Shown: positions 18,822 through 42,833 of the stretch, piece after piece
Layout: each line of letters begins with the position of its first letter
Numbering within the stretch: the stretch's first letter is position 1
Translations under genes and position numbers: made by a program
Assembly (NCBI GenBank): GCA_963696635.1
Contig: CAVOKX010000014.1
Coordinates: 256,234-320,233, forward strand
Direction: 5' to 3'
DNA from: an uncultured Acidobacteriota bacterium
Lineage (GTDB): Bacteria; Acidobacteriota; Terriglobia; Terriglobales; Acidobacteriaceae
Length of the DNA: 64,000 bases
Notes under the pieces: generated by a model
What the model saw: the letters and a program-made list of their open reading frames with translations, nothing else
Told to the model about the DNA's origin: nothing
Databases searched by the model: none

Positions 18822-19082
18822 CTACTTCGCCTTCGCCCAGACCGAGGCATTGAAACACTCCACGACGCCATCGATCGCTTTCGCCAGCCCGGCCTTAAAT
18901 TTCTCCTCATCCACGATCTCTCGACTGGCAACCGCGCTACTCACGGACAGCGCCGCCTCCAGGAATGACAATGCGGCGTCTTTTTTTTCCGTTCCCGTTC
19001 GGTGGCTGAACAGTCCTTCGATACCGTTCACCACCGCGGGCACAAAGGAAATCGTCTGTAGAAGTGTGGCTAGAAAGTTCAT
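18822..19082 (-). CDS. Holin-like small membrane protein (LL-H-holin-like pattern)
   Basis: 86 aa. N-terminal hydrophobic segment 'FLATLLQTISFVPAVVNGI', then 'GTEKKDAALSFLEAAL...IVDEEKFKAGLAKAIDGVVECFN'. This resembles the Holin_LLH layout, recalled from memory. It is the last gene of the phage-like block. Confidence 0.35.
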   Translation of the reverse strand: MNFLATLLQTISFVPAVVNGIEGLFSHRTGTEKKDAALSFLEAALSVSSAVASREIVDEEKFKAGLAKAIDGVVECFNASVWAKAK

Positions 19083-19178
19083 TGCTGTTTCTCCTGAAGT
19101 CTTCGGAAGACTTCGGATGTGTCGGAATAAGAAGTGGGAGTGGCTTAGACAGGCGACAAACCTGATAGAGGAGTTAAT

Positions 19179-19610
19179 CTACTTCGGAAAGCCGTTCAAC
19201 ACGAACTTGGTGAGATACATGATCAACCCGAAGAGCGCGCTAAGGGCTAGGCCTCCAACCGCGCCTGCCACCCCAGAGGTCACTGATGATCTGCCTTGCC
19301 GAGCGGAGAGTGCCGCGTTTACTTCGTCTCGCCATTTGTTGTGTTCCTTCTCTTGGCTCTCGTAGACTTCACGGCCAACAAAACTCGCTTCCTTCCGACG
19401 AGCCTCTTCGTGAGCATGATTTAGAATCTCAAGGCGTCGAAGCATTTCAATGTGGTTTAGCTGCACTGCTCGGTCGGCAAGCTCGAAGCGCAGCTCGACG
19501 TGAGCTTTATGTTCATCGACCCTTTCGCGCTCGGCCGCTAGGATGGCGAGCATATGCTCCTTCAGGGACACCGAATCGCATTCATCATTCAGATTCACAG
19601 GCAGATTCAC
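19179..19610 (-). CDS. Coiled-coil protein with C-terminal membrane anchor (lysis- or spanin-like position)
   Basis: 143 aa. Heptad-rich centre and C-terminal TM 'GVAGAVGGLALSALFGLIMYL'. Start is uncertain (GTG at 19610). Confidence 0.35.
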   Translation of the reverse strand: MNLPVNLNDECDSVSLKEHMLAILAAERERVDEHKAHVELRFELADRAVQLNHIEMLRRLEILNHAHEEARRKEASFVGREVYESQEKEHNKWRDEVNAALSARQGRSSVTSGVAGAVGGLALSALFGLIMYLTKFVLNGFPK

Positions 19611-19715
19611 AGGACACCTCTACAGGGAACGCTTTGGTCGCGAGTCGTACCGTTAACGACACTCCTCATGCTGCCGAGAAGTGGGGTATTGGTGGAACAT
19701 TTTTTCAAATACCGC

Positions 19716-22052
19716 TCATAGTGGATAGTCCAGGTGCAGAGCTGCGCTGTATCTTGAATACTTTGGCGGGACGGAATTGTCGTACTGTTGCAAGTAACAG
19801 TTCTGCACCCGAGATAGACGAGGTATGGTGAAGGCCTGTGTCGCGAATCGTCCTACCAAGTTGCGGTCATTGCCGGGGCCCCAGCCTGCGTTACTCCAGC
19901 GGACCTCGATTCCACCACCGCTGATCGGGGCTATACCGGCATCTACACTAACCGTAGTCGACGTTACCTGAGTGATTTCTGCTGCCGTCAAATCAGCCAA
20001 ATATGTTGTTCCCACCTGTGCATTAGTTAACTGATCCACAAACAGCGAAGTTGTAGCTTTTGTCGCTTCGAATTCAAATGCCAAGGTCTTTGCGGCATCG
20101 TTCGCAAATTTGATCTTGTAACTGAGGTGCTCGCCTTCCAGATTTTTTGTCGTTATCTCGACCTCGGTCACGATGGCAGGAAATGTTGCACTTCGTGACG
20201 GAACGTTTATGTTCAATGCGTCGCCAGGAAAGATGTCGCCGGCGCTTCCCGGTAAATAATCGCTCCAGACATCATATTCGCCCGTCCATGCCGGACCCGT
20301 AGCGTCGTCCAGCAGCGCCAAAGCCGCCATTTCGCAATCCGCGGCGGTGCGCGCCAGCGGTTCCTTCGGGTGGCGTACCGCGCCATGTAAACCGTCATCG
20401 ATTCCGCGTTGTTGGGCAGCGATGCTTGCCGGATTTGTCACCCGTGCCAGAGCGTGGCCAAGGCTCCGATAGTGAACCTCGATATATTGGTTGGCTGCGG
20501 GCGCGTATTGCGGATAAAACTCCAGCGCGTTGCTCGACGTGATCTCGCACTCCGCCCCTTCTTCCAACGACCCGACGAGCTGCGTAATGTAACCCTGTCC
20601 CGGAAGAGCGCTGCGTACCTCTGCATCTACCGCTTGAATCAGTCGCGTGAAGGCAATCGCACACTGCAAGTTGGCAGAGTTTGCCAGAGCGCAAGTGCAA
20701 AAATCCGGCGCGCTGGAGATGACTCCGTCGTACAGTACAGCGGGCGGTGCAACCAGCGTCGCCGGATTCGCCGGATCAATGTCCTGTAACTCCAATACGA
20801 CGCGCACGTCCGCGGCAATCTCGGCCCCTCCAATTCCGCTGCCGGAGGGATGGACGGACGAATGAAATATCTGCTGCCTCCTATAGATTTCCTCGGAATA
20901 TAAACGGGTGTTCAGAAGATAATGATGCCCCGCGACCGTGGTAATTAGCACACCGCTGGCCGCCCCATTCACCAAAGCCTGGATATTCGATTGGGTTCCG
21001 TTTGGTGTGATCTGAAACCCCGCGAGGCAGCCCGCGATAGAGACTGCGCCAGGATAAAGTCCACCCAGCACCCCGGTGGATGCGGCGCTGAACATGACGT
21101 CGCCGTGCTGGATCACTAACGGGGCCCCAAGTTCGACTTTCTCAGCGAATTGCACCAGCGTGGTGCCATCCGCTCCCGTGCCACCCGCAATCTGCAGTTG
21201 ACCCCCACTCACCGAGATCACATTCAAGGGATCGATCACGCTCCACAGCGTGGGCTCCAGCGGCGAAATCGTGAATTCTTCGTCGAAAAGGGTTTTGCTC
21301 GCCTTTGTGAACGGCGTCTGGGAAAGATAAAATTTAAGGGTCAATCCGTCGCCCACGAAGTAATCCTTTACATAAGCTTGTGGTTCGCTTTGTCCTATCA
21401 CCGTCACATCGTTTATCAACCCATTCACCGGTTGTAATTTCAGGCCGTCCGGGCAGAATGTAGTGTCTGTTTCAGACAGGGAGTAGGATGTTGCTCCCAG
21501 CGGTGCGAAAATCAATGCCCCATTCATAATGCGGTAGCTGGCCCGCGCCTGAATAGCGATTTCTGCCGCTTGTTGCGACCACGTCTTTCGCGGATCAGAC
21601 GCATACCACGCCAGCGTGTCCAAATCTTGGACAGCGCTGGTATCGAAAACTCCAGGCAGCAAGTCCTGGGTCAACTGCCGGAGCGCATCGCCCGCGCTCC
21701 GGTTAAGGAAAGGGCAACGATCAGGGAGCCGTTTCTCGTCGAGTAGGCCCTCGTCGCTCTGTGCCACCAAGTCGTAACGGTAAACGGGACCTCTTTCTCC
21801 CCATCCCAAATACTCAAAAACAGGAGATTGCATCAGATATCCGGTGAACACGTCCTGGCCATTGGTGAGCCCCAACGTAAGCCGCGCTCCGGTTGTGGGC
21901 ACTACAAAATCAGGCGAGTCCGCCACGAGGCTGAGCTTGAGTTCGGAAGGCTGGTTCAGTTTGCGGACTACCTGTGGAGATCGCGACCCGTCAATCGAAG
22001 AAGTGTAGTCGGTGGGTCCGAGACCATCGAGATTATCGATTTGTAATTTCAT
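19716..22052 (-). CDS. Phage tail hub / baseplate-hub-like protein (gpD/gp27-like N-terminus)
   Basis: 778 aa. The N-terminal pattern 'DVFTGYLMQSPVFEYLGWGERGPVYRYDLVAQSDEGLLDEKRLP..FLNRSAGDALRQLTQDLL' resembles the 'F.G.v....Y.Y.l.a.s....L' core of gpD/VgrG-type hubs. Confidence 0.45.
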   Translation of the reverse strand: MKLQIDNLDGLGPTDYTSSIDGSRSPQVVRKLNQPSELKLSLVADSPDFVVPTTGARLTLGLTNGQDVFTGYLMQSPVFEYLGWGERGPVYRYDLVAQSDEGLLDEKRLPDRCPFLNRSAGDALRQLTQDLLPGVFDTSAVQDLDTLAWYASDPRKTWSQQAAEIAIQARASYRIMNGALIFAPLGATSYSLSETDTTFCPDGLKLQPVNGLINDVTVIGQSEPQAYVKDYFVGDGLTLKFYLSQTPFTKASKTLFDEEFTISPLEPTLWSVIDPLNVISVSGGQLQIAGGTGADGTTLVQFAEKVELGAPLVIQHGDVMFSAASTGVLGGLYPGAVSIAGCLAGFQITPNGTQSNIQALVNGAASGVLITTVAGHHYLLNTRLYSEEIYRRQQIFHSSVHPSGSGIGGAEIAADVRVVLELQDIDPANPATLVAPPAVLYDGVISSAPDFCTCALANSANLQCAIAFTRLIQAVDAEVRSALPGQGYITQLVGSLEEGAECEITSSNALEFYPQYAPAANQYIEVHYRSLGHALARVTNPASIAAQQRGIDDGLHGAVRHPKEPLARTAADCEMAALALLDDATGPAWTGEYDVWSDYLPGSAGDIFPGDALNINVPSRSATFPAIVTEVEITTKNLEGEHLSYKIKFANDAAKTLAFEFEATKATTSLFVDQLTNAQVGTTYLADLTAAEITQVTSTTVSVDAGIAPISGGGIEVRWSNAGWGPGNDRNLVGRFATQAFTIPRLSRVQNCYLQQYDNSVPPKYSRYSAALHLDYPL

Positions 22053-22343: not shown

Positions 22344-23378
22344 CTAGTAAACCGCGGCCATGGCGGCGGGAAAGTAGCTGCGATAGCACACCACAGTCTG
22401 CCCGTCATTCTCATCTAAATGCGGCATCGCTTGAAAGGCGGCATGCAAAGCGAGGGAAGCAACTGGCTTTGTGATCTCCATCCGTTCCTCTCTCTGAAAT
22501 GCTTTGACCGCTCTAGGCTGAGCTGTGGGAGTCAAAGGCATGGACAGTTCGATCGCGGTAGTCGGGCTGAGCCTGGGATAGTGAAAGCACACTCGGCCTC
22601 CCGACTCTTCCTCCGCCACGAATAGTGCCGACCATTCCTGAAAAAATGATCCTCCTTCGCGATCCACGAACGCGACTACTTTTTGCACGGAAGCTCCCGT
22701 GGACGGTGCTCCGCCCAGTAAGGGCTGAGCCAGCAGTAATGAAGTCACCGTTTCTTGGGCTACGCGGCCAACGTTAAACGTCACACGACGAACGTAATTG
22801 GCATCCCGGTTCACATCTGCGGGGTCGCTAACGTACGCAGCCGAGATTCCCGTTCCCACATATCCGGTCTGCTGCTGGTAGTCGGTGTCTACGGCAACAA
22901 CGTCGCCCACCGCAAACGCATTCACCGCTCCCACTCCCAGAACGATCTGGCTGGCCGTCGATCCTGGAAGTACGGCTACCGCCGGCAGGGGTGTTCCGCC
23001 GGAGGGTTGTGCGTTGGCATTTGGATCGGACGCCAGTACGTTCATGTGCTCGGATCCGCACGCCAGAGCCATTTGGAGCTTGCCCCACTCGCGAAAATCG
23101 AATTCAATCCGCGCATCAATTGGACCACGAAACTGTGCAGTAGGTGCTGCCGCTGTGCCCGCCCGCAATGGTTCGGTAAGGGTCGTGCACCAACGTTGGA
23201 AGTTGTCCACCCAGCCAAGATCGAGCCATGGCGCGGGCGGTGCATCCAGCAGGAATGCACCGTACTTGCCCGGATCGAAGATCGATGGTGTTCCTGCAGT
23301 GCGGTTCATCGGCGCAAAGTATGCGCGAATTTGCCGCGTGACCGGAACCATTGGCGCGCGAAGCGGCGAGGTACTCAT
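22344..23378 (-). CDS. Phage structural protein (possible tail tube / major tail protein)
   Basis: 344 aa. ATGA overlap with the upstream gene. Called on position alone, between the connector-like genes and the hub; no diagnostic motif was recognised. Confidence 0.3.
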   Translation of the reverse strand: MSTSPLRAPMVPVTRQIRAYFAPMNRTAGTPSIFDPGKYGAFLLDAPPAPWLDLGWVDNFQRWCTTLTEPLRAGTAAAPTAQFRGPIDARIEFDFREWGKLQMALACGSEHMNVLASDPNANAQPSGGTPLPAVAVLPGSTASQIVLGVGAVNAFAVGDVVAVDTDYQQQTGYVGTGISAAYVSDPADVNRDANYVRRVTFNVGRVAQETVTSLLLAQPLLGGAPSTGASVQKVVAFVDREGGSFFQEWSALFVAEEESGGRVCFHYPRLSPTTAIELSMPLTPTAQPRAVKAFQREERMEITKPVASLALHAAFQAMPHLDENDGQTVVCYRSYFPAAMAAVY

Positions 23379-23908
23379 AGAAAGTTCACCTCGGGAAAGA
23401 AGAAAACCTTTAAGCTGGCACTGCGCTCCAGTCGCACTCCTTCGTTTCCTCTGGGAAGACCCTCGTTCTTCGCCGCTTCACTGCCAGAAACCTTGCCCAG
23501 GTTCGGTGTCGTCCATAGAATACTTGTCCCCAAATCAGCGCTGGGCGTCTGTGTGTAATCTCGCTTTGAAGTTCGGGGCGGTTCACAAATATTCAGTAGT
23601 TCCATATCGAGAGCCGCCAGCGCCCGGCCTCGATCCACGCCGCTCTGCACCGTTCCGAAGGTGTGGTAAGAAATTATGCATTCCATTTCCATCAGACCCC
23701 TATCGCCCACTTGGTCTTGCACCATCTGTGCCGTGCCCCATTCGATGTAAAACGCGTCGGACACGGGCTGGGCAGAAATCACTAATTCGTTTTCCGCCAC
23801 GATGATCGCGGGCCGAGTCGTCCCGTCGAGAGTAACCGTTTGAAGCGGGTTCAACGAGACCAACCGTTGCAGCAGTGCCATATAAAAACTATCTTTGGTG
23901 AATTGCAT
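23375..23908 (-). CDS. Phage head-tail joining / tail-terminator-like protein
   Basis: 177 aa. Called on position and size only; translationally coupled to 22344-23378. Confidence 0.3.
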   Translation of the reverse strand: MQFTKDSFYMALLQRLVSLNPLQTVTLDGTTRPAIIVAENELVISAQPVSDAFYIEWGTAQMVQDQVGDRGLMEMECIISYHTFGTVQSGVDRGRALAALDMELLNICEPPRTSKRDYTQTPSADLGTSILWTTPNLGKVSGSEAAKNEGLPRGNEGVRLERSASLKVFFFPEVNFL

Positions 23909-23977
23909 AAAGGCAGCGTAAGCTCCTGAGTCCTAGCTTTTGGCTCGACCTGGTTTTGTGAATGCTAAGCCAGGGGA

Positions 23978-24029
23978 GGCACGGCTTCAGCCGTGCCGGT
24001 CGAGCCATGAAAAATGTAGGCTTCAGCCT
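23978..24029. repeat. REP-like hairpins inside the phage-like structural operon
   Basis: GGCACGGC-TTCA-GCCGTGCC (23978-23997) and AGGC-TTCA-GCCT (24018-24029), in the 184-bp gap between two structural genes. Confidence 0.6.
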
Positions 24030-24092: not shown

Positions 24093-24503
24093 TCATTCCA
24101 CCGCCAGTACTCGGTAGAGATAAGCAGTTCCATCGAAGTACTCCGTGGTCACGTTCTCGATATGAAAAAGATCGTTGTCGTACAACAGTCCGAGCGCGCC
24201 ATCGAACAGGACTTCAGCCGATGCCACGTTCCGTGAACTTAACTCCGCCGCCACCGCGGCGCCCGACAACAGGAACTCCAAACGTCTTCGAGGGCCCGTC
24301 GCCGGAGTAATCAAAGTCCGCACTACCACGGGAGAAAAGATCACTTCTTCCACCCCTGGATCGGCTAAGCCAAGTTGAGCGCTGGGATCATTAGGCATCG
24401 TGACCAACGGGAATAGCATGCTGACCTCGGCGCCACCTAGCGCCTGCAGCATTGCATCTGCCGCCCGCACCACCGCCGATGAACTCATCCCGGTTTCAGT
24501 CAT
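24093..24503 (-). CDS. Phage head-completion/adaptor-like protein
   Basis: 136 aa. Packed 3 nt behind the upstream gene. Called on position only. Confidence 0.3.
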   Translation of the reverse strand: MTETGMSSSAVVRAADAMLQALGGAEVSMLFPLVTMPNDPSAQLGLADPGVEEVIFSPVVVRTLITPATGPRRRLEFLLSGAAVAAELSSRNVASAEVLFDGALGLLYDNDLFHIENVTTEYFDGTAYLYRVLAVE

Positions 24504-38700: not shown

Positions 38701-39244
38701 TAGGATTCACCGGTGTTGGCAGGGCAGGCGCCACCGTAAATTGCTTGGCGCCAACGATCGTCTCGTCCCCGCTTAGGTGCACCACCGCAGCATCGTTCGC
38801 CTTACCCGCCAGCGCCGTATTCACGTACTGCTGCGTCGCCATCTGCGAAGCCGAGCTGCTCGCCCCCAATGTCGTCCGCACCGCTGATATAGTCGTCGGA
38901 GAACTCGTCGGAACCACCCAATACTCGGTTTTGACGGTGTCATCGTCCAGTTGGTAGACGACCGTATAAACCGTATTCGCGGGCGTTGCGTTTGCGTTTG
39001 AAACCAAGCCGACAGACAACGCACCCCCCGCCCCGAGCGTGACGCTCGTATTCCCTGCCGCCACCGCCCCCAACGCCGCGGTAGTAAACTCCGGCCATGA
39101 AATCAGCAGCGTCCCTCCGGCTGGCGTCCCATCGGCGCGATACACGGTATCCACGATCATCGTGGTGGGAAGCGTTTGCGCTGAAACCATCAACGCCACC
39201 AGCAAAAGAAAAAGCCACCCAACTGGGCGGCGCGCGTCGAACAT
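32759..39244 (-). CDS. Giant (about 2161 aa) tail-fibre-like beta-helix protein with N-terminal signal/anchor
   Basis: ATG at 39244 preceded by GGAGGA. N-terminus 'MFDARRPVGWLFLLLVALMVSAQT'. Tail-fibre repeat signatures 'AANKEYVDNS...GGTMTGPLTLSGDP', 'PLASPSFTGTVTSP' and 'PLASPTFTGTPTVP'. The long Gly/Thr/Ser/Asn-rich beta-rich sequence is one uninterrupted 6.5-kb ORF. Confidence 0.6.
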   Translation of the reverse strand: MFDARRPVGWLFLLLVALMVSAQTLPTTMIVDTVYRADGTPAGGTLLISWPEFTTAALGAVAAGNTSVTLGAGGALSVGLVSNANATPANTVYTVVYQLDDDTVKTEYWVVPTSSPTTISAVRTTLGASSSASQMATQQYVNTALAGKANDAAVVHLSGDETIVGAKQFTVAPALPTPVNPSDAANKEYVDNSTQNVGNGSYVSTAGGTMTGPLTLSGDPVAPGQAATKRYADLGVASKADLVAGLVPGGELGTGTANNTLCLHGDSTWGGCGSSSNAVSIQNVPVATTTPTDNQVMTYVASLGEYEPKAGGGVTTGMQAVKYATDFNWTQSPATDLSIAGAKTVNLASCAAGVTGTEPWYYIYISGTGTAEAALVTGGTCAGSGQAGTLQFTTLNAHAAGYTITSASGGLQEALIAARFNATNPSGPSQSGKVIVPPGELQAYARISVRASNVTVDFSGSIVDCYMQDTCIFAGDPSNSNAFLDITLMNPRGRPMVVSGQSPFIEVNAQKTRLLNVTTRIPPTGGTFNSYVQVDNDQAFLLDGLDTSLATGSSDYGVLCNASVCNPVIYAPGPFSSNAAVGWLKNLNISMQCTGNGIDWQSGNTVKISDSVIQGFAQYGVRAGVKRGGYNGFELDNVYEEVGSCTNPAGAIGEAGVIAQGATVKVEGAMLPAGSVPQFANTGSTDYRYYIVAHSATFGASNPLYAGRALTNGSGNIIVTTPDVAGASTFDLLRVSYLDLNNPREQAPYGIGDYAVATSVSRASACANGVCSFTDTQAALQSYTVATPAYFPLLDYWPGNLVLAANQDSGSVLDGAKAWVQSAPSDIVAVQGTGAPAVISTECQSVDGWTPLWLSCYTSMAPGTFYDQGAFLLAVKPNQDSGLFTNLKGRLNFPTLGSGPGHIITLSDSNFQKTIATANNRPSNDANDAFIGYDQGDGNPAHVGISLGAPVSLSSYIGNVGDGTNWLERLTTGLKEVKTSVQLDNTLTVAGTAQASCVADDRSGVVGSARQLWESESGAGRKIGDWVRCGRDSFRFHRMAAQWLGSPVLDSNGDVSENANTATQLALTPTQCNGSFATGVQANGNANCSVADVIQLAETGPPTGIPNYGIFWFDSTCHCPKVISNNGQAVQLGLLNVFNLDANTLEEYDGANPQTLNIYGTRTDASDYERLRLAYDTTDNYFVLASDALGTLMPQQGLGFWLQGSLRWVIDTSFNLKPWSDNLKDIGSTTLRVHNLFLGTGLVFGSGTLTGAHGSTGVAAEAGTLSTTVGAGLCNDGQGNVTDQGCTSGSVGSVFGRAGVIVAQAGDYSVSQVTGAAPLASPSFTGTVTSPQYCLGINCITTWPSGGGLPSGTQGNPAVNTTGAATYATSPVWVDASQFSGGDMCAKIATARASSSCSSAAQGCFITAPFSGLQVCNSSPFSGWTGGGELDLGGSKFLDIRTSVSWKIPLSVRVRGMGTASAGSGLSAAANTIIRAGNAAFMNPASNFAVPSEAIPNASPSISVSGTTATVNVSNTMCVGSAPNSGQDVFIYGGPGIFAAYHGFATGITGCSGGTASSFTITVPSGTSNCTSSCGTVYEGTPLINFGVNSSGAAQYRTQLEGVSVDCAWVLGCINLLNDGAEENSWFRNVNFFNYGGEAVRLSEFTTAGVGGGGSTGGGASQSGPYTDFSINFLPETCEKVAGCGAVAHNANVYETSGAGTNAQSQNPLGCFTSAIVVDGPRSSGGTTTVNHIDKISSFTISASDPDPGNTNNPNTPVAMNDATCGTPYTSHTTPIGIETWGVMADIENFHIEDYPAEIQIGGNSALNAAYPGTTVGQASQSPVTTNGVRISNGATSSGSSNAWQVDISANAGDISVGSMTRFGGSHLLKDNVTGNTCTDLTLAAYFLGNGGSPSVMTTCNGINSTVSAGWGSITGTLSAQTDLQTALNLRAPLASPTFTGTPTVPGYAKTGTLISGDYTSATGAGAVGDSTVVAGPYGIGWMTELTGGNSGYLPSSSANKAMMWGVTLTYPLSTSQVTYDIGSNADNTATNNYDLGLFNSSGTLVLNLNSGTLHGSSFAPATGAVTLSWAQGTKTLQPGDYYLMYYTSNITSTPPTLISPSATAFTFYKGEAGGSGTCGTTQGSGGFGITTLSGGALPTSITPPANSYSWSACLPAIWIH

Positions 39245-39405
39245 AACTCCTCCGTTGCTTGCTACTGTTTCAAGATTCCGCGACAACTCACACCTCAGCA
39301 TCCGCCTGGCGTACCGCAAGGCCAAATACTCTGAGTTGTCAATGGACTAAAGCGCGATAATCGAATTGCTTCTCGAACTCAGGACTCAAGCGCGAAGCCT
39401 GAAGC

Positions 39406-39996
39406 CTACTTCCCAGCCCTCACCTGCTGCTGCAAATACCCTTTCACACTATTCACATACACATCCGCGAAGTCTACCACCGGACGTCGGGCTTCTATCA
39501 AGTGCAGTGCGTCCCCCAGCTTCCAACTCAGAGAGCACAAGATCGCAAGCGTCATCATCGGTGCCCGGTGCACACCAGCGGCGCAATGAACGAAAAGTTT
39601 AGTTCCCTCCTCGTCCAGAGCCTCTAGCGCAAAATCCACTCCCCGTTGGAAAACGTCGGGCGATTTCGGTTGGAAGTCGTCATCAATCGGATTCCACAGC
39701 ACCGAAATGCCATGCGGCTCCGCCAGCGGCGTGTCGTCGAATTCAATCTGCATGTCGAGGATGTGAGTGACCCCTGCCCTCGCCACCTCTGCCATGTTGC
39801 CCCTTGTCCAAATTCCTCCACCAACCGCAATTCGACCGGTTACCCAAGTCATATCCATTATGAAAGTCCCGTGTGGCAGCCTTTTGTGCACCCCCGAGCA
39901 GGCTTGCAAATCCCCCCGGTTTCGCAGCGCCATCGACCAACGGCCAGCGGCCAACGACCAGTTCTGAGCAACTTTCGACCACTCATTAACTTTCAT
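39406..39996 (-). CDS. Dual-specificity (Cys-based) protein phosphatase
   Basis: Active-site loop 'VHCAAGVHRAP' (HCx5R). The ATG at 39996 forms an ATGA overlap with the upstream gene. A shorter form from ATG 39858 would cover only the catalytic domain. Confidence 0.7.
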   Translation of the reverse strand: MKVNEWSKVAQNWSLAAGRWSMALRNRGDLQACSGVHKRLPHGTFIMDMTWVTGRIAVGGGIWTRGNMAEVARAGVTHILDMQIEFDDTPLAEPHGISVLWNPIDDDFQPKSPDVFQRGVDFALEALDEEGTKLFVHCAAGVHRAPMMTLAILCSLSWKLGDALHLIEARRPVVDFADVYVNSVKGYLQQQVRAGK

Positions 39997-40367
39997 TCTA
40001 CGGCATCACCCTTAGGCTGCACCGCGTCCCCCGCACACTCTTTTGTAACTTCAGTACCTGGATTCGTCTCTTCAGGAAGCTTCAACCGCCGCAACAGAAT
40101 TTTCGCCAACGAATCTTCTTCAATCGGTTCTTCGGAAGCCGCCGCCGAACACAATCCCACCATCTCAAATAAGTATTTCATCGCCGGGTAGTGACCTTTT
40201 TCGGCATCGGCAATCGCGCTCTCCACAATTTCCACCGCGCGACTCCCCACCAGCTTTGCGATCTGCTCGCGCACCACGTTGAGATCAACCTGTTTCAGCT
40301 CTTTTTCATGCGCTGACCCAACTTTCTTCGACTCTTTGCCGGCCTCGCGTGTCAGAACTCTCTTCAT
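39993..40367 (-). CDS. Hypothetical protein, first gene after the second terminator
   Basis: 124 aa, helical and charged; no family recognised. A small terminase role can be neither supported nor excluded. Confidence 0.35.
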   Translation of the reverse strand: MKRVLTREAGKESKKVGSAHEKELKQVDLNVVREQIAKLVGSRAVEIVESAIADAEKGHYPAMKYLFEMVGLCSAAASEEPIEEDSLAKILLRRLKLPEETNPGTEVTKECAGDAVQPKGDAVE

Positions 40368-40400: not shown

Positions 40401-40434
40401 AAAAATCAGGGCGCACGGTTATCCGCGCGCCCTT
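40401..40434 (-). terminator. Strong intrinsic terminator between the regulator pair and the late genes
   Basis: Minus strand reads AGGGCGCGCGG-ATAA-CCGTGCGCCCT (11-bp stem with one G-U pair), followed by GA and TTTTTT. Confidence 0.65.
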
Positions 40435-40518: not shown

Positions 40519-41211
40519 TCAATCCCTTGCGAGAAATGGCCCGCTTTTACCCCCTTGACAACTTTTCCGCACCTCCTGTTTTGTTTTGAGCAGACCGGTC
40601 AATATCTCCCTTCTGAGCAGAATCTCGCTGATTCGATCCAGCGCTTCCGGAAAAAGACGCTCCACCGTGCGGTAGCCGCATCCCAGGAGTCGTCCTGCCT
40701 CCTCCTTCGAATATTGCTGCAGCACAATCTTTGCAATCATTTTCTTCTCGAATTCATTCAGTTCTTCCAGGCTACGTTCCACGTCGTGTACAAAAATCAC
40801 CGAATCCTCGAACGTCGAAGCCCCGTACGATGTAACCCGGCTCCGAAAAAACTCCCGCCCCAGTAGCGACGGCAATCGGCCCACCTCAATCGAAAGCCGC
40901 ATATACCGGCGCAGGAGGGCAACCGTACGATCCCGGTACAGCCACAGATCAGGATTGCTTCCGGCGTCGGTGCTGTCCGCCGAAATCGCCGTCTGGTCCG
41001 CGGCTCGCTTTGAAACTTCTGCCGCCTTCCCCCCAGAAGCCTCGGCCAGATCGGTCTTTCGGGCTTCAGCCTCCGATGAATTGGTTGGCCTGAAATTACC
41101 TTCTACACGCCTGCTGCCTTCCCCTTTCAATGCTTTCTCGAAACCAACGCACGGTGGCATACCCGGCGTCTCCGCGGATGCATTAAGCAGGCCGATCATC
41201 CCGCCGCTCAT
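40519..41211 (-). CDS. Sigma-70 region-4-like HTH regulator (candidate late-gene activator/antiterminator)
   Basis: 230 aa from the ATG at 41211. The C-terminus 'LNEFEKKMIAKIVLQQYSKEEAGRLLGCGYRTVERLFPEALDRISEIL' fits the sigma70_r4/ECF region-4 pattern. No region 2 was recognised. ATGA overlap with the zinc-ribbon gene. Confidence 0.5.
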   Translation of the reverse strand: MSGGMIGLLNASAETPGMPPCVGFEKALKGEGSRRVEGNFRPTNSSEAEARKTDLAEASGGKAAEVSKRAADQTAISADSTDAGSNPDLWLYRDRTVALLRRYMRLSIEVGRLPSLLGREFFRSRVTSYGASTFEDSVIFVHDVERSLEELNEFEKKMIAKIVLQQYSKEEAGRLLGCGYRTVERLFPEALDRISEILLRREILTGLLKTKQEVRKSCQGGKSGPFLARD

Positions 41212-41450
41212 GCGTTCCCCCCCTCGCCGCAAAACCCTGACAACTCTTCGCATTGGCTCTTGATCTCCACTCGATCGTTTACCAGTAAATTCGGCTTTCT
41301 CCTTCGGCGGACCGCAGGAAGATCCGACATTTGCACCGCACACGCAGGGCAATACACTTCTTCCGCTCCCCACGTGCGCATCCACAACCCACCGCATCTT
41401 TCGCAATACTTCAATTCCAACCGCACAATTTCCAGACCCTCTATTTCCAC
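41208..41450 (-). CDS. Zinc-ribbon protein
   Basis: 80 aa. GTG start preceded by GGAGG (5-nt spacer). 'CERCGG...(15)...CPAC' is a four-Cys ribbon, followed by the basic stretch 'RRRRKP'. Confidence 0.5.
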   Translation of the reverse strand: MEIEGLEIVRLELKYCERCGGLWMRTWGAEEVYCPACAVQMSDLPAVRRRRKPNLLVNDRVEIKSQCEELSGFCGEGGNA

Positions 41451-41520: not shown

Positions 41521-41559
41521 AATGAAAAAAGCCCTGCGCCGATTGCTCGGTCACAGGGC
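41521..41559 (-). terminator. Intrinsic terminator after the first small gene of the early transcript
   Basis: Minus strand reads GCCCTG-TGA-CCGA-GCAA-TCGG-CG-CAGGGC followed by TTTTTT. Confidence 0.55.
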
Positions 41560-41644
41560 CCGTTTCTCTTACGGAGAACCTGTTAAATTTATTTAGCTAT
41601 GAGTATAGCGATACAACTAGTTATTCACCCCGCCAGCGCGACCA

Positions 41645-41854
41645 TCAGGGCAGCCGGGGCTTGCGAAAATAACCCTCCTCGTATCCAGATTTCAACACCC
41701 GGCCATTCTGCACCACCACACTGACCTTACCCGTAAACTCCAGCATACGCAGCAGTTGTTCCATCGCAGCAGAAAGTACTTCGGCGGAGCGCACCTTGCG
41801 GCGGAACTCCACGAAGCCTCCTGCCTCATTTTCAGATTGTTGATTGCAATTCAT
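41645..41854 (-). CDS. Small protein in the cro position (YezD/DUF2292-like pattern, not an HTH)
   Basis: 69 aa. 'GKVSVVVQNGRVLKSGYEEGY' resembles the 'G.v.i.vqdGrvv' motif of YezD-type proteins, recalled from memory. It is the first gene of the leftward transcript. Confidence 0.3.
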   Translation of the reverse strand: MNCNQQSENEAGGFVEFRRKVRSAEVLSAAMEQLLRMLEFTGKVSVVVQNGRVLKSGYEEGYFRKPRLP

Positions 41855-41879
41855 CGCTTTTTCCCGACTACCAGATTAG

Positions 41880-41926
41880 TTATAACAGAGTAGTTATGAT
41901 ATAACTTCCGGTACCTAATAAGTCAA
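41880..41926 (-). promoter_or_regulatory. Leftward (lytic-type) promoter with overlapping palindromic operators
   Basis: Minus strand: TTGACT (41921-41926), 17-nt spacer, TATATC (41898-41903). The palindrome GTTAT-GAT-ATAAC (41893-41905) covers the -10, and GTTATAAC (41880-41887) lies just downstream. Confidence 0.45.
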
Positions 41927-41962
41927 GAACTATTTTCTGCTAGATGTTTGTGATATGCGTCA

Positions 41963-41981
41963 CAATAGCGATCTGCTATTG
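41963..41981. promoter_or_regulatory. Operator-like palindrome CAATAGC-N5-GCTATTG
   Basis: Perfect 7-5-7 inverted repeat. A near copy, CAATAGC-GGTCT-GCTATA, lies at 42078-42095. Confidence 0.45.
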
Positions 41982-42077
41982 CCGCCCGGGGTACTTCCGG
42001 CTGTGGAAAACTCGGTCGTAAGCGATTCTGGCCCTCATCGCCCCATTGTTTCCTCTGAGATGTTGAACTAACATGAT

Positions 42078-42109
42078 CAATAGCGGTCTGCTATAAATCG
42101 TGCTATACT
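42078..42109 (+). promoter_or_regulatory. Second CAATAGC operator copy plus extended -10 (TGCTATACT) for the repressor gene; probably a leaderless mRNA
   Basis: TGnTATACT at 42101-42109 ends 7 nt before the ATG at 42117. There is no room for a Shine-Dalgarno sequence. Confidence 0.4.
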
Positions 42110-42116
42110 CTGCTTC

Positions 42117-42833
42117 ATGAAATTCAAAGTCTTGCAGGAAAACCTTCGCAAAACCTTGTGGCACCGTATCGAAGAAGAGGGGTTGACGGGTTTGCGCTTG
42201 GCGCAACAGACCGGCTTCAAACAAGCCCATATCTCCAACTTCCTCAATCGCAAGCGGGGCTTGAGTTTGGAGGGCATGGACAAAGTCTTGCGCGTGCAAC
42301 ACCTCTCTGTGCTCGATCTTCTCGATCCGGACGAAGTCAACAAACGTGCCAGCATCCTGCCGCCGAGCGAGGACGAGTTCCAGAATGTCTTGCTCGTCGA
42401 CGGCGCCGTCGCCGCCACCGAACCTCTCGTCATGAGCATGAATGTCAAGGAAATTCTCAAGTTCAAAAAGAGTTTCCTGCAGGGCCTGCGGGCCGAGACC
42501 GAGGGTCGCCGCGACGACTGGGAGCGCTTCGTTGTAATTCAAGTCGATGCTCGCGATGGCATGAGCATGTATCCCCGCCTTTTGCCCGGAGCCACCGTCC
42601 TCATCGACCGCCACTACAACTCGCTCAAGCCCTATCGCAAGGGTGAGACCAACATGTACGCAGTGAACAAAGACGGCACATGCACCATCAAGTACGTGGA
42701 ACTGGCCGGGAACAACCTGGTCTTGCGTCCACACAACCAGGCCTACCCGGTAGAGGTAATGCCTTTGGAAGCCGACAAGAACGCCAGCAGTTACTTGATC
42801 GGCCGAGTCTGCTACGTGGGAATTGAAACCTAA
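42117..42833 (+). CDS. CI/LexA-like repressor (XRE HTH plus S24 self-cleaving peptidase domain)
   Basis: 238 aa. HTH 'LRLAQQTGFKQAHISNFLNRKRG'; S24 Ser region 'DGMSMYPRLLPGATVLID'; Lys region 'GTCTIKYVE'. Confidence 0.8.
   Translation: MKFKVLQENLRKTLWHRIEEEGLTGLRLAQQTGFKQAHISNFLNRKRGLSLEGMDKVLRVQHLSVLDLLDPDEVNKRASILPPSEDEFQNVLLVDGAVAATEPLVMSMNVKEILKFKKSFLQGLRAETEGRRDDWERFVVIQVDARDGMSMYPRLLPGATVLIDRHYNSLKPYRKGETNMYAVNKDGTCTIKYVELAGNNLVLRPHNQAYPVEVMPLEADKNASSYLIGRVCYVGIET

What the first reader, a model, noticed from the sequence alone, without database searches (positions are those of the whole stretch)
18822..42833. Integrase-less, replication-less phage-like element with fully intact structural genes: domesticated (GTA-like) particle locus or decaying prophage?
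Read on the minus strand, the block has this order.
- Promoter and operators
- 69-aa gene
- Terminator
- Zinc-ribbon plus sigma-region-4-like pair
- Terminator
- 124-aa gene
- Cys-phosphatase
- 2161-aa fibre-like protein
- 747-aa beta-helix/CE4 protein
- TerL, portal, protease, scaffold and capsid
- Three connector-like genes
- Tube-like gene, hub-like gene, membrane protein and holin-like gene

A divergent S24 (SOS-cleavable type) repressor sits at the right end. No ORF in the track shows recombinase, replication, small terminase, tape-measure, sheath or endolysin features.

Every remaining gene is intact, including one 6.5-kb ORF. Many gene junctions are ATGA/GTGA overlaps. Host-type REP hairpins (23978-24029) and the CCAACGACC motif (39933-39961) occur inside the element, which suggests long residence.

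Intact head genes plus loss of the self-propagation modules is the pattern described for gene transfer agents. I know of none described for this kind of genome, though I have not checked.
Basis: partly seen in the sequence, partly recalled or inferred. Interest (0 to 1): 0.8.

Follow-up and report, generated by a model that had tools for sequence, protein, structure and literature searches.

The report
Domesticated phage-particle locus of soil Acidobacteria
A 24-kb set of phage head, tail and fibre genes with no means of copying or moving itself has been inherited, intact and under strong selection, at the same chromosomal spot in hundreds of species of the abundant soil order Terriglobales, so it is a host-kept particle factory (most likely a gene-transfer-agent-like or PBSX-like element) and not a prophage.

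Summary
Window 18822-42833 carries a CI-type S24 repressor with operators, a small early gene, a zinc-ribbon plus sigma-region-4 pair, two strong terminators and a late operon. The late operon encodes a phosphatase, a giant fibre, a beta-helix/CE4 spike, TerL, portal, capsid, adaptor, a tube-like protein, a hub and a holin-like protein. No integrase, att repeat, replication gene, TerS, tape measure, sheath or endolysin was found.

The decisive evidence is comparative.
- At least 572 species-representative genomes, nearly all labelled Terriglobales, encode the portal.
- 65 of 67 loci that span the core keep all ten core genes.
- The locus abuts the 2-oxoacid dehydrogenase E2 gene in 58 of 67 loci.
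- dN/dS is 0.03-0.17 for the core genes, like E2, with matching dS.
- Element protein distances track E2 distances (Mantel p≤0.002).
- Composition is indistinguishable from the host's.

The repressor, operator and terminators are conserved too. The fibre is mosaic. Related phages have a tape measure between tube and hub; this element has none.

The literature lists what are probably these loci as "proviruses"; I found no proposal that they are domesticated. Whether the particles carry host DNA, transfer it or kill remains untested. I rate it a new member of a known kind, with high interest.

The parts
42117..42833 (+). CI/LexA-type repressor (HTH_26 plus peptidase S24). It marks the right-hand boundary of the element.
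   Evidence: Pfam PF00717 (E=7e-8) and PF13443; phrog_4, E=2.8e-15. Orthologues are 58-98% identical at the same divergent position in relatives. The GMSM(Y/F)P and TIKYVEL motifs are shared by the window and the L067 orthologue. Reading them as the S24 Ser/Lys catalytic dyad is from my memory of LexA.
41855..42116 (.). Divergent control region with two palindromic operators, CAATAGCG(A/G)TCTGCTAT(TG), at 41963-41981 and 42078-42094.
   Evidence: Repeat search. The ATAGC-N5-GCTAT half-sites are kept about 22 nt upstream of the repressor start in 18 of 24 relatives while the spacer varies.
41645..41854 (-). 69-aa early gene with weak DUF2292-like similarity.
   Evidence: ORF. Orthologues are 62-94% identical. 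Two orthologues give weak PF10055 hits.
41525..41561 (-). Intrinsic terminator T1, after the 69-aa gene.
   Evidence: Hairpin of dG -26 kcal/mol followed by a T-run. A strong hairpin is present in 30 of 30 relatives, with stem substitutions that keep the pairing.
41208..41450 (-). 80-aa four-Cys zinc-ribbon protein. It overlaps the next gene by 4 nt.
   Evidence: Weak PF13453 hit. The CERCG...C(P/A)xC motif is conserved in orthologues down to 36% identity.
40519..41211 (-). 230-aa sigma-factor-like regulator (region 4 HTH). Proposed activator of the late genes.
   Evidence: phrog_1740 and phrog_351 'RNA polymerase sigma factor', E=9e-5. The L067 orthologue scores 27.2 bits for PF08281 Sigma70_r4_2, above the gathering score.
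40408..40433 (-). Intrinsic terminator T2, immediately upstream of the late operon.
   Evidence: 11-bp stem with 9 GC pairs plus a T-run. An equivalent GC-rich hairpin is present in 25 of 38 relatives.
39993..40367 (-). 124-aa first late gene of unknown function. The small-terminase candidacy rests only on position.
   Evidence: Conserved KGHYxAMKYLFEMVGL motif; orthologues 26-82% identical. No Pfam or PHROG hit.
39406..39996 (-). Dual-specificity (Cys) protein phosphatase.
   Evidence: PF00782, E=5e-11. HCAAGVHR is invariant in alignment A5. At least 412 relatives were found in metagenomes.
32759..39325 (-). 2188-aa secreted fibre or receptor-binding protein with mosaic evolution.
   Evidence: Weak BppL_N hit. 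dN/dS about 0.2. The N-terminal 100-200 aa are shared by 57 of 91 loci; residues 1400-2000 are shared by only 2-5 loci.
30448..32739 (-). 763-aa right-handed beta-helix protein with a CE4 polysaccharide-deacetylase domain (spike or depolymerase).
   Evidence: PF13229 and PF01522. Same position in relatives. dN/dS 0.06-0.08.
28775..30451 (-). Large terminase.
   Evidence: phrog_2, E=3e-31; PF17289. ATPase and nuclease motifs are conserved in 67 sequences.
27481..28695 (-). Portal protein (HK97 type).
   Evidence: PF04860, E=3.5e-42. Homologues are 78-97% identical in the best 120 clusters. At least 572 species genomes encode a relative.
26849..27394 (-). 181-aa conserved head-module protein. 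A protease or scaffold role is not shown.
   Evidence: Conserved position and sequence. No hit in Pfam, PHROG, NCBIfam or PDB.
26335..26769 (-). 144-aa protein, probably coiled-coil (my reading of the sequence); scaffold-like by position.
   Evidence: Sequence. Conserved in 77 loci. Only chance-level coiled-coil hits.
25222..26196 (-). Major capsid protein (323 aa from the conserved Met).
   Evidence: Most conserved protein of the element, 71-98% identical. The deep profile A8 matches PDB 9vel_C, the SPO1 major head protein, at E=8.8e-4 over 240 residues. Two members give weak 'major head protein' PHROG hits.
24507..25133 (-). Head-tail adaptor.
   Evidence: phrog_442, E=5e-8. Full length in 100% of loci.
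24093..24503 (-). 136-aa neck or connector candidate.
   Evidence: Conserved position. No profile hit.
23975..24029 (.). Two host-type REP-like hairpins (GGCTTCAGCC core) in the gap between the 136-aa and 177-aa genes.
   Evidence: The motif occurs 5 times in the window against 0.16 expected. The copy at 23975-23998 matches the one at 45999-46022, outside the element.
23375..23908 (-). 177-aa tail-terminator-like protein.
   Evidence: The family profile's best hit among Tunturi_4 virion proteins is gp8 'tail terminator', E=0.014. dN/dS about 0.03.
22344..23378 (-). 344-aa tail-tube-like protein.
   Evidence: Family profile against Tunturi_4 gp9 'major tail protein': E=1e-5 in a 21-protein set; hhalign E=0.026. 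A 29% relative precedes a tape measure in L203. The AlphaFold model failed.
19716..22052 (-). 778-aa tail hub or baseplate protein.
   Evidence: 29% identity over 89% of its length to Tunturi_4 gp15, the gene after the tape measure and gp14. Profile E=8e-103.
19179..19610 (-). 143-aa protein with a hydrophobic C-terminal stretch (coiled coil plus membrane anchor by my reading of the sequence). Present only in the closest relatives.
   Evidence: Sequence. Found in 5 loci.
18822..19082 (-). 86-aa holin-like protein with a hydrophobic N-terminal segment (membrane segment by my reading). It is the last gene before E2.
   Evidence: phrog_36560, E=6e-6. Sequence. Conserved in 57 loci.
4784..6488 (-). 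HipA_2 kinase-like (5682-6488) and DUF3037 (4784-5608) pair. In most relatives it lies between TerL and portal; here it lies 12 kb outside the element.
   Evidence: The pair is present inside the element in 73-76 of 82 loci. The window copies are 75% and 46% identical to those of L001.

Best explanation
This is an ancient, domesticated tailed-phage remnant. The order Terriglobales (Acidobacteriota) inherits it vertically and keeps it under selection as a particle-producing locus. It is a GTA-like or PBSX-like element, not a prophage.

**Proposed mechanism.** Each step is marked as shown or inferred.

1. A CI/LexA-type S24 repressor binds two conserved ATAGC-N5-GCTAT operators in the divergent control region and keeps the locus silent. 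The domains and the operator conservation are shown. Binding is inferred.
2. Self-cleavage of the repressor after DNA damage or a similar signal frees the early promoter. This is inferred from the S24 family.
3. Early transcription makes the 69-aa protein and must pass terminator T1 to reach the zinc-ribbon and sigma-like pair. These proteins then drive late transcription, which must pass terminator T2. The conserved terminators and the sigma region 4 domain are shown. The activation and anti-termination logic is inferred, by analogy with lambda Q, PBSX Xpf and CcGTA GafYZ.
4. The late operon builds an HK97-type head (portal, capsid, adaptor) and a short non-contractile tail. The tail has terminator-like, tube-like and hub proteins but no tape measure. 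The particle also carries a mosaic giant fibre and a beta-helix/CE4 spike that would recognise exopolysaccharide or capsule of related cells. Gene content is shown. Morphology is inferred.
5. TerL has intact ATPase and nuclease motifs and no recognisable sequence-specific small terminase, so it probably fills heads with host DNA. This is inferred.
6. Cells release particles by lysis, using the holin-like last gene plus lysis functions encoded elsewhere. This is inferred.

The benefit to the host is either DNA exchange between relatives or killing of competitors. I judge DNA packaging likely (about 0.6) and productive gene transfer about 0.4.
For: **Distribution.** At least 572 GTDB species-representative genomes encode a portal relative. 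The best 80 are nearly all labelled Terriglobales, Acidobacteriaceae or Sulfotelmatobacter, on contigs up to 5.2 Mb.

**Synteny and intactness.** The order TerL-portal-181-144-capsid-adaptor-136-177-344-778-86 is kept. All ten core genes are detected in 65 of 67 loci that span the core. Most core genes are full length in 84-100% of loci.

**Fixed junction.** E2 lies on the opposite strand just beyond the hub gene in 58 of 67 loci, and in 33 of 35 loci with at least 2 kb of flank.

**Selection.** dN/dS is 0.03-0.17 for all core genes, against 0.06-0.09 for the adjacent E2. dS is similar for both (0.6-1.2 against 0.8-1.2) in the same genome pairs.

**Co-divergence.** Pairwise identities of ten element proteins correlate with those of E2 (Spearman 0.49-0.74, Mantel p≤0.002, 21 genomes).

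**Amelioration.** GC, codon usage and tetranucleotide profile equal the flanks. Host REP-like hairpins lie inside the element.

**No mobility or replication genes.** None appears in the window or in relatives. Beyond the repressor lie unrelated host genes that differ between lineages. No att-like repeat was found.

**Regulatory module conserved.** The repressor, operator, T1, T2, zinc ribbon and sigma-like gene are all kept.

**Rearrangement without loss.** One clade, which includes this window, moved the HipA_2/DUF3037 pair out of the element. Another clade reordered the head and tail blocks but kept every gene.

**Other points**
- TerL catalytic motifs are invariant or nearly so.
- The fibre is mosaic, with raised dN/dS, as expected for a receptor-binding protein still in use.
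- IMG/VR holds only 24-32 short fragments and no complete genome of this type.
- A known GTA also uses an activator plus anti-termination past a terminator that follows the first gene of the cluster (PMC11150451).
Against: - No particle, packaged DNA, transfer or expression data exist. Everything functional is inferred.
- The host marker used for co-divergence (E2) is physically linked to the element, so regional co-transfer is not formally excluded.
- The element keeps its own CI-type switch. Known GTAs have mostly handed control to host regulators.
- The lack of a tape measure, tail chaperones and an endolysin could mean the tail or the release step is defective, unless those genes lie elsewhere.
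- The tube, terminator and scaffold assignments are weak. Both AlphaFold models failed (pLDDT 32 and 35), and PDB profile searches found nothing for five of six families.
- A few lineages show decay: L078 has lost five head and neck genes, and several loci have split genes.
- Many related genomes are long-read or short-read MAGs, so some apparent frameshifts, or their absence, may be assembly artefacts.
Confidence: 0.75

Rival explanations
1. The particles are killer particles, a PBSX-type phage-like bacteriocin. They adsorb to related strains through the variable fibre and spike and kill them. Any packaged DNA is a by-product and is not delivered productively.
For: The regulatory layout (HTH repressor plus sigma-like late activator) resembles what I recall of PBSX (Xre and Xpf); this comparison is from memory. 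The fibre is hypervariable and mosaic, which fits strain-level targeting. A tail without a tape measure might be unable to form a DNA conduit.
Against: A pure killing device would not need a terminase, a portal and a highly conserved capsid. Yet the capsid and portal are among the most constrained genes, and TerL is also under purifying selection (dN/dS 0.03-0.17; TerL motifs). No sheath or contractile machinery is present. PBSX itself still packages DNA, so this rival overlaps the main explanation and differs only in the selected benefit.
Confidence: 0.25
2. It is a cryptic prophage in slow decay. It happens to be old and has no function for the host.
For: It lacks integrase, replication, tape-measure and endolysin genes. 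A few relatives have lost or split genes.
Against: Neutral decay cannot keep about 20 kb of ORFs open, including a 6.5-kb one. It also cannot hold dN/dS at 0.03-0.17 over divergences where dS is about 1 or saturated, in hundreds of species. The operators and terminators are conserved as well, with stem substitutions that keep the pairing.
Confidence: 0.03
3. It is an active temperate phage or a helper-dependent satellite. It integrates again and again at a hotspot next to the E2 gene, using an integrase and replication functions that are unrecognised or supplied in trans.
For: Published surveys call what are probably these regions proviruses, and virus-detection tools flag them (PMC5900883 and PMC11924767). 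The CI-type repressor with operators looks like a working lysogeny switch.
Against: - Element proteins co-diverge with the adjacent host gene and show the same dS.
- Composition is fully host-like.
- No att repeats were found.
- No integrase appears in any of more than 100 related loci, and the far flank consists of ordinary host genes.
- Gene relocation and block rearrangement occurred within clades.
- IMG/VR holds only short fragments and no complete free genome.
Confidence: 0.03
4. The locus is kept for a function other than particle release. One example is anti-phage defence or stress-induced altruistic death, driven by the HipA-like kinase, the phosphatase and the repressor switch. In that case the structural genes would act as decoys or interference factors against related phages.
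For: A HipA_2 kinase-like gene with its DUF3037 partner sits inside the element in 73-76 of 82 loci, and a Cys-phosphatase opens the late operon. Acidobacterial phages with a homologous hub protein exist (Tunturi_4).
Against: Interference would not require every head, neck, tail and fibre gene to stay intact and co-linear. It would also not require TerL catalytic residues to stay invariant. The kinase pair can leave the element without loss of the structural genes, as in this window.
Confidence: 0.06

Closest known systems
RcGTA-type gene transfer agents of Alphaproteobacteria (Rhodobacter capsulatus RcGTA, Caulobacter CcGTA)
   Same: - A chromosomal head-tail gene cluster with no integrase or replication genes.
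- Vertical inheritance across an order-level clade, under purifying selection.
- Some genes can lie away from the main cluster.
- Late expression needs a dedicated activator. In CcGTA it also needs anti-termination past a terminator that follows the first gene (PMC11150451). This locus has two conserved terminators ahead of its late genes.
   Different: - No sequence relationship was found. None of the ten core proteins scanned (TerL, portal and eight head-to-hub proteins) hits any NCBIfam family except a weak generic HK97-portal match, and none hits a Pfam family named for a GTA.
- This locus is larger (24 kb).
- It keeps a CI-type S24 repressor with operators.
- It has a sigma-like regulator.
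- It has no tape measure.
- It carries a 2188-aa fibre and a CE4 spike inside the cluster.
- DNA packaging and transfer are shown for RcGTA and CcGTA and are untested here.
PBSX and related defective prophages of Bacillus subtilis (comparison from memory, not tested here)
   Same: - A species-group-wide, non-mobile, inducible phage-like element.
- An HTH repressor and a sigma-factor-like positive regulator of the late genes.
- Production of particles that carry host DNA.
   Different: - PBSX has a contractile tail with a sheath. No sheath gene is present here.
- PBSX carries its own terminase small subunit, holin and amidase. No TerS or endolysin is recognisable here.
- The phyla differ, and no homology was detected.
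Acidobacterial 'prophage Cluster 153' (Eichorst et al. 2018, PMC5900883) and 'group (ii) Terriglobales proviruses' (Demina et al. 2025, PMC11924767)
   Same: - These are probably the same loci.
[quoted passage not shown]
- They have no relatives among isolated phages.
   Different: - Those studies classed them as likely active prophages or widespread proviruses.
- In the passages I read, neither study addresses a fixed chromosomal position, co-divergence with the host, purifying selection or the lack of mobility genes.
- I could not fetch the named isolate genomes, so identity with this locus is inferred from host range and description.
Tunturiibacter phage Tunturi_4 (PP885687), a siphovirus of Acidobacteriota
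   Same: The hub protein is homologous (29% identity over 89% of the 778-aa protein; profile E=8e-103). The tube-like and terminator-like proteins are weakly related, and they lie in the same order.
   Different: Tunturi_4 is an 88-kb replicating phage. It has a 1435-aa tape measure, three small genes of unknown function and gp14 between tube and hub, and its own endolysin. Its head genes are unrelated to those of this element.

Membership tests
Gene transfer agent (functional class) | Chromosomal cluster of phage structural and packaging genes that cannot replicate, excise or integrate on its own. | tested here: met
   No integrase, replication or att feature was found in the window or in related loci.
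Gene transfer agent (functional class) | Vertical inheritance with purifying selection across a host clade. | tested here: met
   At least 572 species carry it, with a fixed E2 junction. dN/dS is 0.03-0.17, dS equals that of E2, and Mantel p≤0.002.
Gene transfer agent (functional class) | Particles package essentially random host DNA in pieces too small to hold the whole locus. | not testable with these tools
   This needs sequencing and sizing of DNase-protected DNA from particles. The only indirect hints are an intact TerL and the absence of a recognisable TerS.
Gene transfer agent (functional class) | Delivery of packaged DNA to recipient cells, with recombination. | not testable with these tools
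   This needs marker-transfer experiments.
Gene transfer agent (functional class) | Production controlled by host regulatory networks. | tested here: inconclusive
   The element keeps its own conserved repressor, operators, sigma-like gene and terminators. The S24 domain suggests coupling to the host SOS response, but no host regulator was identified.
RcGTA-like (alphaproteobacterial) GTA family | Homology to the RcGTA head and tail gene families. | tested here: not met
   NCBIfam and Pfam scans of the core proteins gave no hit to any family named for a GTA. NCBIfam gave only TIGR01537 (portal_HK97) at 45 bits, below its cut-off of 112, and Pfam gave the generic portal and terminase domains. 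I did not check independently that the libraries hold RcGTA-specific models.
PBSX-like defective prophage | HTH repressor plus sigma-like late activator controlling a structural operon. | tested here: met
   An S24/HTH repressor and a Sigma70_r4 protein sit upstream of the late operon. The comparison with Xre and Xpf is from memory.
PBSX-like defective prophage | Contractile tail (sheath, tube, baseplate). | tested here: not met
   No sheath or baseplate-wedge family was hit.
Intact temperate prophage | Integrase or transposase, attachment-site repeats, and replication or lysogeny-exit functions. | tested here: not met
   None was found in the window. The longest shared boundary repeat is 10 nt. 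The flanks in relatives are host genes.
HK97-type head and packaging module | Portal (PF04860), large terminase and an HK97-fold major capsid protein. | tested here: met
   Portal E=3.5e-42 and TerL phrog_2 E=3e-31. The capsid profile matches the SPO1 major head protein structure 9vel at E=8.8e-4. The capsid link is modest, and the AlphaFold model failed.
Siphovirus-type long non-contractile tail | Tail terminator, tube, chaperones, tape measure and distal hub, in that order. | tested here: not met
   The hub is homologous to Tunturi_4 gp15. The tube and terminator matches are weak. No tape measure or chaperones lie between the tube-like and hub genes, here or in relatives. Tunturi_4 and the distant relative L203 do have a tape measure.

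The most novel reading that the evidence does not exclude
The locus is a true gene transfer agent that arose by a domestication independent of all known GTA lineages. It would be the first in Acidobacteriota, fixed before the families of Terriglobales diverged. Its distinctive features would be:
- an SOS-type CI switch feeding a sigma-like and anti-termination cascade;
- a head joined to a tail with no tape measure;
- fibres that are swapped between lineages to set the range of recipients.

If so, one of the most abundant soil bacterial orders exchanges chromosomal DNA through its own particles. Many 'acidobacterial proviruses' and vOTUs in soil viromics would then be host genes rather than viruses.
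Probability: 0.35. Interest if true: 0.9.

Novelty: new member of a known kind. Interest (0 to 1): 0.8.

Why it matters
**A new lineage of domesticated particles.** To my knowledge only a handful of independent GTA or domesticated-particle lineages are known, none from Acidobacteriota. The paper library holds no such report. Terriglobales are among the most abundant and least tractable soil bacteria. A host-owned particle system conserved in at least 572 species would be a candidate route for gene flow, or for competition, in soil.

**A correction for soil viromics.** Virus-detection tools flag loci of this kind, and published surveys count them as proviruses or vOTUs linked to Acidobacteriota. 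If they are host genes, estimates of lysogeny and of virus-host links in soils and peat are inflated.

**Open questions that become testable**
- The conserved chain of repressor, operator, terminator and sigma-like regulator.
- The tail with no tape measure.
- The kinase and phosphatase genes.

All three can be studied in strains that already grow in culture, such as Terriglobus, Granulicella and Tunturiibacter.

Tried and rejected
**Searches that found nothing**
- DNA similarity of 25000-31000 to 50,697 phage records: no match.
- tRNA and Rfam scans of the window: nothing, so there is no tRNA integration site.
- Exact look-up of the window's portal protein: not on record.
- tblastn of the capsid against phage records: no match.
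- PDB profile searches for the hub, tube-like, terminator-like, 136-aa and 181-aa families: only chance hits. The shallow capsid profile also failed. Only the deep profile reached SPO1 gp6.1.
- Pfam on diverse orthologues of the 124-aa gene: nothing, so its candidacy as a small terminase is unsupported.
- Literature search for PDB entry 9vel: irrelevant hit. I identified the chain instead by tblastn of its printed sequence.
- Literature search for expression of these genes in Granulicella: nothing usable.

**Structure prediction**
- AlphaFold2 on the capsid (30-sequence alignment, 84-97% identical to the query) gave pLDDT 32. On the tube-like protein (35 sequences) it gave pLDDT 35.
- Both models are unusable, so I ran no fold search.
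- The cause is that only near-identical homologues could be supplied.

**Weak comparisons**
- hhalign of the capsid family against the Tunturi_4 capsid: no relationship.
- PHROG scans of distant capsid relatives: only marginal 'major head protein' hits.

**Ideas rejected**
- A Myxococcota origin, suggested at first by the RomY-N hit. The homologues are all Terriglobales.
- A podovirus (T7-like adaptor and nozzle) reading of the 208-aa and 778-aa genes. The 778-aa protein is homologous to a siphovirus gene that lies just downstream of the tape measure.
- The 101-aa ORF at 22084-22389 as a gene. It is not conserved.

Full report
**1. What is in the window**

Profile searches confirm the following.
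- Portal, 27481-28695: PF04860, E=3.5e-42.
- Large terminase, 28775-30451: phrog_2, E=3e-31; Terminase_6C.
- Head-tail adaptor, 24507-25133: phrog_442, E=5e-8.
- A 763-aa beta-helix protein with a CE4 deacetylase domain.
- A dual-specificity Cys-phosphatase, 39406-39996: PF00782, E=5e-11.
- A divergently transcribed HTH plus S24 repressor, 42117-42833.

The ORF listed as 333 aa is really two genes that overlap by 4 nt. One is an 80-aa four-Cys zinc ribbon (41208-41450). The other is a 230-aa protein (40519-41211) whose C-terminus is sigma-factor region 4. An orthologue of it scores above the Pfam gathering threshold for Sigma70_r4_2.

The 262-bp control region holds two copies of a palindromic operator, CAATAGCG(A/G)TCTGCTAT. 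Strong intrinsic terminators follow the 69-aa gene (41525-41561, dG -26) and immediately precede the 124-aa gene (40408-40433, dG -24).

Nothing in Pfam, PHROGs or NCBIfam indicates an integrase, a replication protein, a small terminase, a tape measure, a sheath or an endolysin. The window has no tRNA gene and no Rfam match. The two boundaries share no direct repeat longer than 10 nt.

**2. Whose genome it is**

The flanks are housekeeping genes. On the left lie lipB, the E1 alpha and beta subunits of a 2-oxoacid dehydrogenase, a cytochrome c and the E2 subunit (17430-18767). On the right lie a met-zincin, DUF5995, a RomY-N protein and the nuo operon.

Portal homologues 78-97% identical fill the first 120 places of a search of 5.8 billion proteins. 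Where they are named, they come from Terriglobales or Acidobacteriota MAGs, on contigs up to 5.2 Mb. The host is therefore an acidobacterium of the order Terriglobales.

**3. The comparative evidence, which decides the question**

I analysed the best 80 with 10-kb flanks, together with two loci fetched by exact protein look-up.

- *Content and order.* A tblastn matrix shows the same genes in the same order: TerL, portal, 181, 144, capsid, adaptor, 136, 177, 344, 778 and 86.
- *Completeness.* All ten core genes are present in 65 of the 67 loci that span the core. Most are full length in 84-100% of loci.
- *Junction.* The E2 gene lies on the opposite strand just past the hub gene in 58 of 67 loci with at least 1.2 kb of flank, and in 33 of 35 loci with at least 2 kb.
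- *Selection.* Against close relatives, dN/dS is 0.03-0.07 for the portal, 0.035-0.06 for the capsid, about 0.03 for the 177-aa gene, 0.04-0.09 for the hub and 0.11-0.17 for TerL. The adjacent E2 gene gives 0.06-0.09. dS is the same for element and host genes in the same genome pairs.
- *Co-divergence.* Across 21 genomes with complete E2, pairwise identities of ten element proteins correlate with those of E2 (Spearman 0.49-0.74, Mantel p≤0.002).
- *Composition.* GC content is 0.565 against 0.563 and 0.564 for the flanks. Codon usage (r=0.835, host-host control 0.797) and tetranucleotide profile (r=0.932, control 0.926) cannot be told apart from the flanks.
- *Host repeats.* A REP-like hairpin in the gap between the 136-aa and 177-aa genes matches one outside the element.

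These results are what vertical inheritance under selection predicts. They are incompatible with neutral decay and with repeated integration of a mobile phage.

**4. The right-hand end**

A metagenome scan anchored on the phosphatase returned at least 412 relatives. In the long contigs the module is conserved: repressor (divergent), then the 69-aa gene, zinc ribbon, sigma-like gene, 124-aa gene, phosphatase and fibre. Repressor identities are 58-98%.

Beyond the repressor lie ordinary host genes that differ between lineages. Examples are pyridoxamine-phosphate oxidase, an alcohol dehydrogenase, an SLT-LysM transglycosylase, pyruvate kinase, TonB, a Ser/Thr kinase and a WYL regulator. I never saw an integrase or replication genes there. 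The repressor is therefore the true boundary. The left junction is ancestral, and the right flank has been reshuffled by host genome rearrangement.

The regulatory DNA is conserved as well.
- The ATAGC-N5-GCTAT half-sites sit about 22 nt upstream of the repressor start in 18 of 24 relatives, while the spacer varies.
- Terminator T1 is a strong hairpin in 30 of 30 loci, with stem substitutions that keep the pairing.
- Terminator T2 is present in 25 of 38 loci.

**5. Rearrangement without loss**

In 73-76 of 82 loci a HipA_2 kinase-like gene and a DUF3037 gene lie between TerL and portal. The window and its nearest relatives lack them there. However, the window holds an orthologous pair (75% and 46% identity) 12 kb away, between mutS2 and dnaG.

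In another lineage the head-to-tube block has moved in front of the fibre and TerL, yet every gene is kept. Rare lineages show real decay: L078 lacks five head and neck genes. Genes that scatter while the set is retained are typical of host-owned, domesticated elements.

**6. What the particle is**

*Head.*
- The capsid protein is the most conserved protein of the element. Its family is small: only 327 clusters among 1.84 billion representatives.
- A profile of 31 diverse members matches one solved structure, 9vel chain C 'Gp6.1', at E=8.8e-4 over 240 residues. That chain is the major head protein of Bacillus phage SPO1.
- Together with an HK97-type portal and the adaptor, this supports an HK97-fold head.

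*Tail.*
- The 778-aa protein is homologous to gp15 of Tunturiibacter phage Tunturi_4, a siphovirus of Acidobacteriota (tblastn E=3e-42; profile E=8e-103). There gp15 follows the tape measure and a small gene.
- The 344-aa and 177-aa families find their best, weak matches in that phage's major tail protein (E=1e-5 in a 21-protein set; hhalign E=0.026) and tail terminator (E=0.014). The order is the same.
- Tunturi_4 has three small genes, a 1435-aa tape measure and gp14 between tube and hub. The element has at most a few hundred non-coding bases there.
- A distant low-GC relative, L203, has a 235-aa ORF and an ORF of more than 917 aa after its tube gene. That long ORF is rich in Leu, Ala, Lys, Glu and Gln and carries glycine runs. 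I read it as a tape measure from this composition and its position; no profile hit supports it.
- The element therefore has a siphovirus-derived tail module from which the length-determining genes are missing. I cannot say what tail this produces.

*Fibre and spike.*
- The 2188-aa protein has what I read as a signal-peptide-like N-terminus.
- Its first 100-200 residues are conserved in 57 of 91 loci. An interior stretch (residues 1400-2000) is shared by only 2-5 loci. Its dN/dS is about 0.2. This is the pattern of a receptor-binding protein still under pressure to change targets.
- With the beta-helix/CE4 protein it probably recognises and modifies the exopolysaccharide or capsule of related cells.

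*Release.* The last gene (86 aa, phrog_36560) has a hydrophobic N-terminal segment and resembles LL-H-type holins. That resemblance is from memory. The 143-aa gene before it looks like a coiled-coil protein with a hydrophobic C-terminal anchor and is found only in close relatives. No endolysin is present in the locus.

**7. How it most likely works**

I propose a repressor-controlled cascade. The conserved parts are shown; the logic that links them is inferred.

1. The S24 repressor holds the early promoter through the two operators.
2. Its self-cleavage after DNA damage releases the 69-aa gene.
3. Passage of T1 gives the zinc-ribbon and sigma-like proteins.
4. These activate late transcription and allow it to pass T2.
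5. The late operon builds heads, tails and fibres.
6. TerL has invariant or near-invariant Walker A, Walker B, coupling and nuclease motifs in 67 orthologues. With no recognisable specificity subunit, it would fill heads with host DNA.
7. The cells lyse.

Activator-plus-anti-termination control past a terminator that follows the first gene of the cluster is documented for the Caulobacter GTA (PMC11150451). As I recall, a repressor plus a sigma-like late activator is the layout of Bacillus PBSX.

The kinase-like and phosphatase genes suggest an added phosphorylation layer. I could not examine it.

**8. Comparison with what is known**

The locus works like a GTA or a PBSX-type defective prophage. 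It is not a member of any described family. No core protein hits a family named for a GTA, and NCBIfam returned only a sub-threshold generic portal match. There is no sheath. DNA-level and capsid-level searches of 50,697 phage genomes found nothing.

The paper library contains no report of a GTA in Acidobacteria or Acidobacteriota. Three papers touch on what are probably the same loci.
- Eichorst et al. 2018 grouped prophage regions of Terriglobus, Terracidiphilus, strain KBS 89 and Koribacter as 'Cluster 153' and counted them as likely active.
- Demina et al. 2025 described related 'group (ii)' proviruses across Terriglobales families and called them widespread.
- A Sphagnum virome study remarked in passing that phage-like contigs found in all its samples, which align to Acidobacteriaceae and Acetobacteraceae genomes, might be vertically inherited cryptic elements.

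In the passages I read, none of them reports the fixed position, the co-divergence with the host, the strength of selection or the missing mobility genes. I could not fetch those isolate genomes, so the identity of their loci with this one is an inference.

**9. Verdict**

- That this is a domesticated, vertically inherited, selected particle locus: about 0.9.
- That it packages host DNA: about 0.6.
- That it is a true GTA: about 0.35-0.4. A PBSX-like killing role is the main alternative.

I class it as a new member of a known kind, namely an independent domestication in a phylum where none is described. Its unusual traits are the retained CI switch, the sigma-like and terminator cascade, the tail with no tape measure, and the kinase and phosphatase genes.

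It matters for gene flow in a dominant soil order. It also matters for soil viromics, where these host loci are being counted as viruses.

**10. Limits**

- All functional steps are inferred from sequence.
- The host marker used for co-divergence is linked to the element.
- Most relatives are MAGs.
- Both structure predictions failed for lack of diverse input.
- The scaffold or protease, neck, terminator and tube assignments are therefore provisional.

Noticed in passing
window 4784-6488 (minus strand); L001 8123-9795 and most of L001-L082: A HipA_2 kinase-like gene plus a DUF3037 gene sit between TerL and portal in 73-76 of 82 related loci. In this window the pair lies instead between mutS2 and dnaG, 12 kb outside the element. 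Its function and its link to the element's phosphatase are unknown.
   Followed up: partly
L179/L193, L178/L194 and L180/L197 (IMG/VR contigs): One lineage has a rearranged but complete element. The order is repressor, zinc ribbon, sigma-like gene, then the head-to-tube block, then fibre, TerL, HipA_2, portal, hub and the 86-aa gene.
   Followed up: partly
L078 and L077: L078 has lost the five genes from the 181-aa gene to the 136-aa gene but keeps portal, tail genes and the E2 junction. L077 lacks the 144-aa gene and part of the capsid gene. These are examples of lineage-specific decay.
   Followed up: no
L203 (IMGVR_UViG_3300035113_000077, GC 36%): A distant, low-GC phage-like relative (portal 39%, capsid 50%, tube-like 29%). 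After the tube gene it has a 235-aa ORF and an ORF of more than 917 aa that looks like a tape measure. It shows what the element's ancestor probably looked like.
   Followed up: partly
L200-L202 (IMG/VR contigs of 74-214 kb): Capsid homologues at 63-64% identity, with no other element gene detectable by tblastn within 10 kb. The neighbours may be too diverged to detect, or the arrangement may be dispersed.
   Followed up: no
L089 3527-6003: A 2.5-kb insertion lies between the repressor gene and the 69-aa gene, inside the control region, in one metagenomic relative.
   Followed up: no
L001 16409-16801: A 130-aa gene with a weak Sigma70_r2 hit lies on the opposite strand between the tube-like and hub genes of a relative on a 5.2-Mb chromosome. 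In the same locus the hub gene is split into 410-aa and 360-aa parts.
   Followed up: no
window 23975-23998 and 45999-46022; also 6681, 24019 and 41062: A REP-like hairpin family, GAGGCACGGCTTCAGCCG(T/C)GCCGG. The GGCTTCAGCC core occurs 5 times against 0.16 expected. One copy sits next to the relocated HipA_2 gene.
   Followed up: partly
window 3934, 3941, 20564, 39951, 52524, 52567: The 9-mer CCAACGACC occurs 6 times against 0.66 expected, both inside and outside the element. Its meaning is unknown.
   Followed up: no
window 47596-48186 (minus strand): A protein matches the N-terminal domain of RomY above the curated cut-off. As I recall, RomY is a regulator of Myxococcus motility and polarity, yet this genome is acidobacterial.
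   Followed up: no
L068 and L080: Two loci with the typical element and E2 junction come from MAGs labelled Dormibacterota and Aquilonibacter (an Eremiobacterota candidate genus, by my recollection). This is probably mis-binning, but transfer across phyla was not excluded.
   Followed up: no
window 16791-17345: A cytochrome c gene lies between the E1 beta and E2 genes of the 2-oxoacid dehydrogenase operon. It is conserved in the relatives whose flank reaches that far.
   Followed up: no
L087 3016-4932: In one relative, an SLT-domain lytic transglycosylase with three LysM repeats lies about 2 kb beyond the repressor. It could be a host gene or a displaced lysis function of the element.
   Followed up: no
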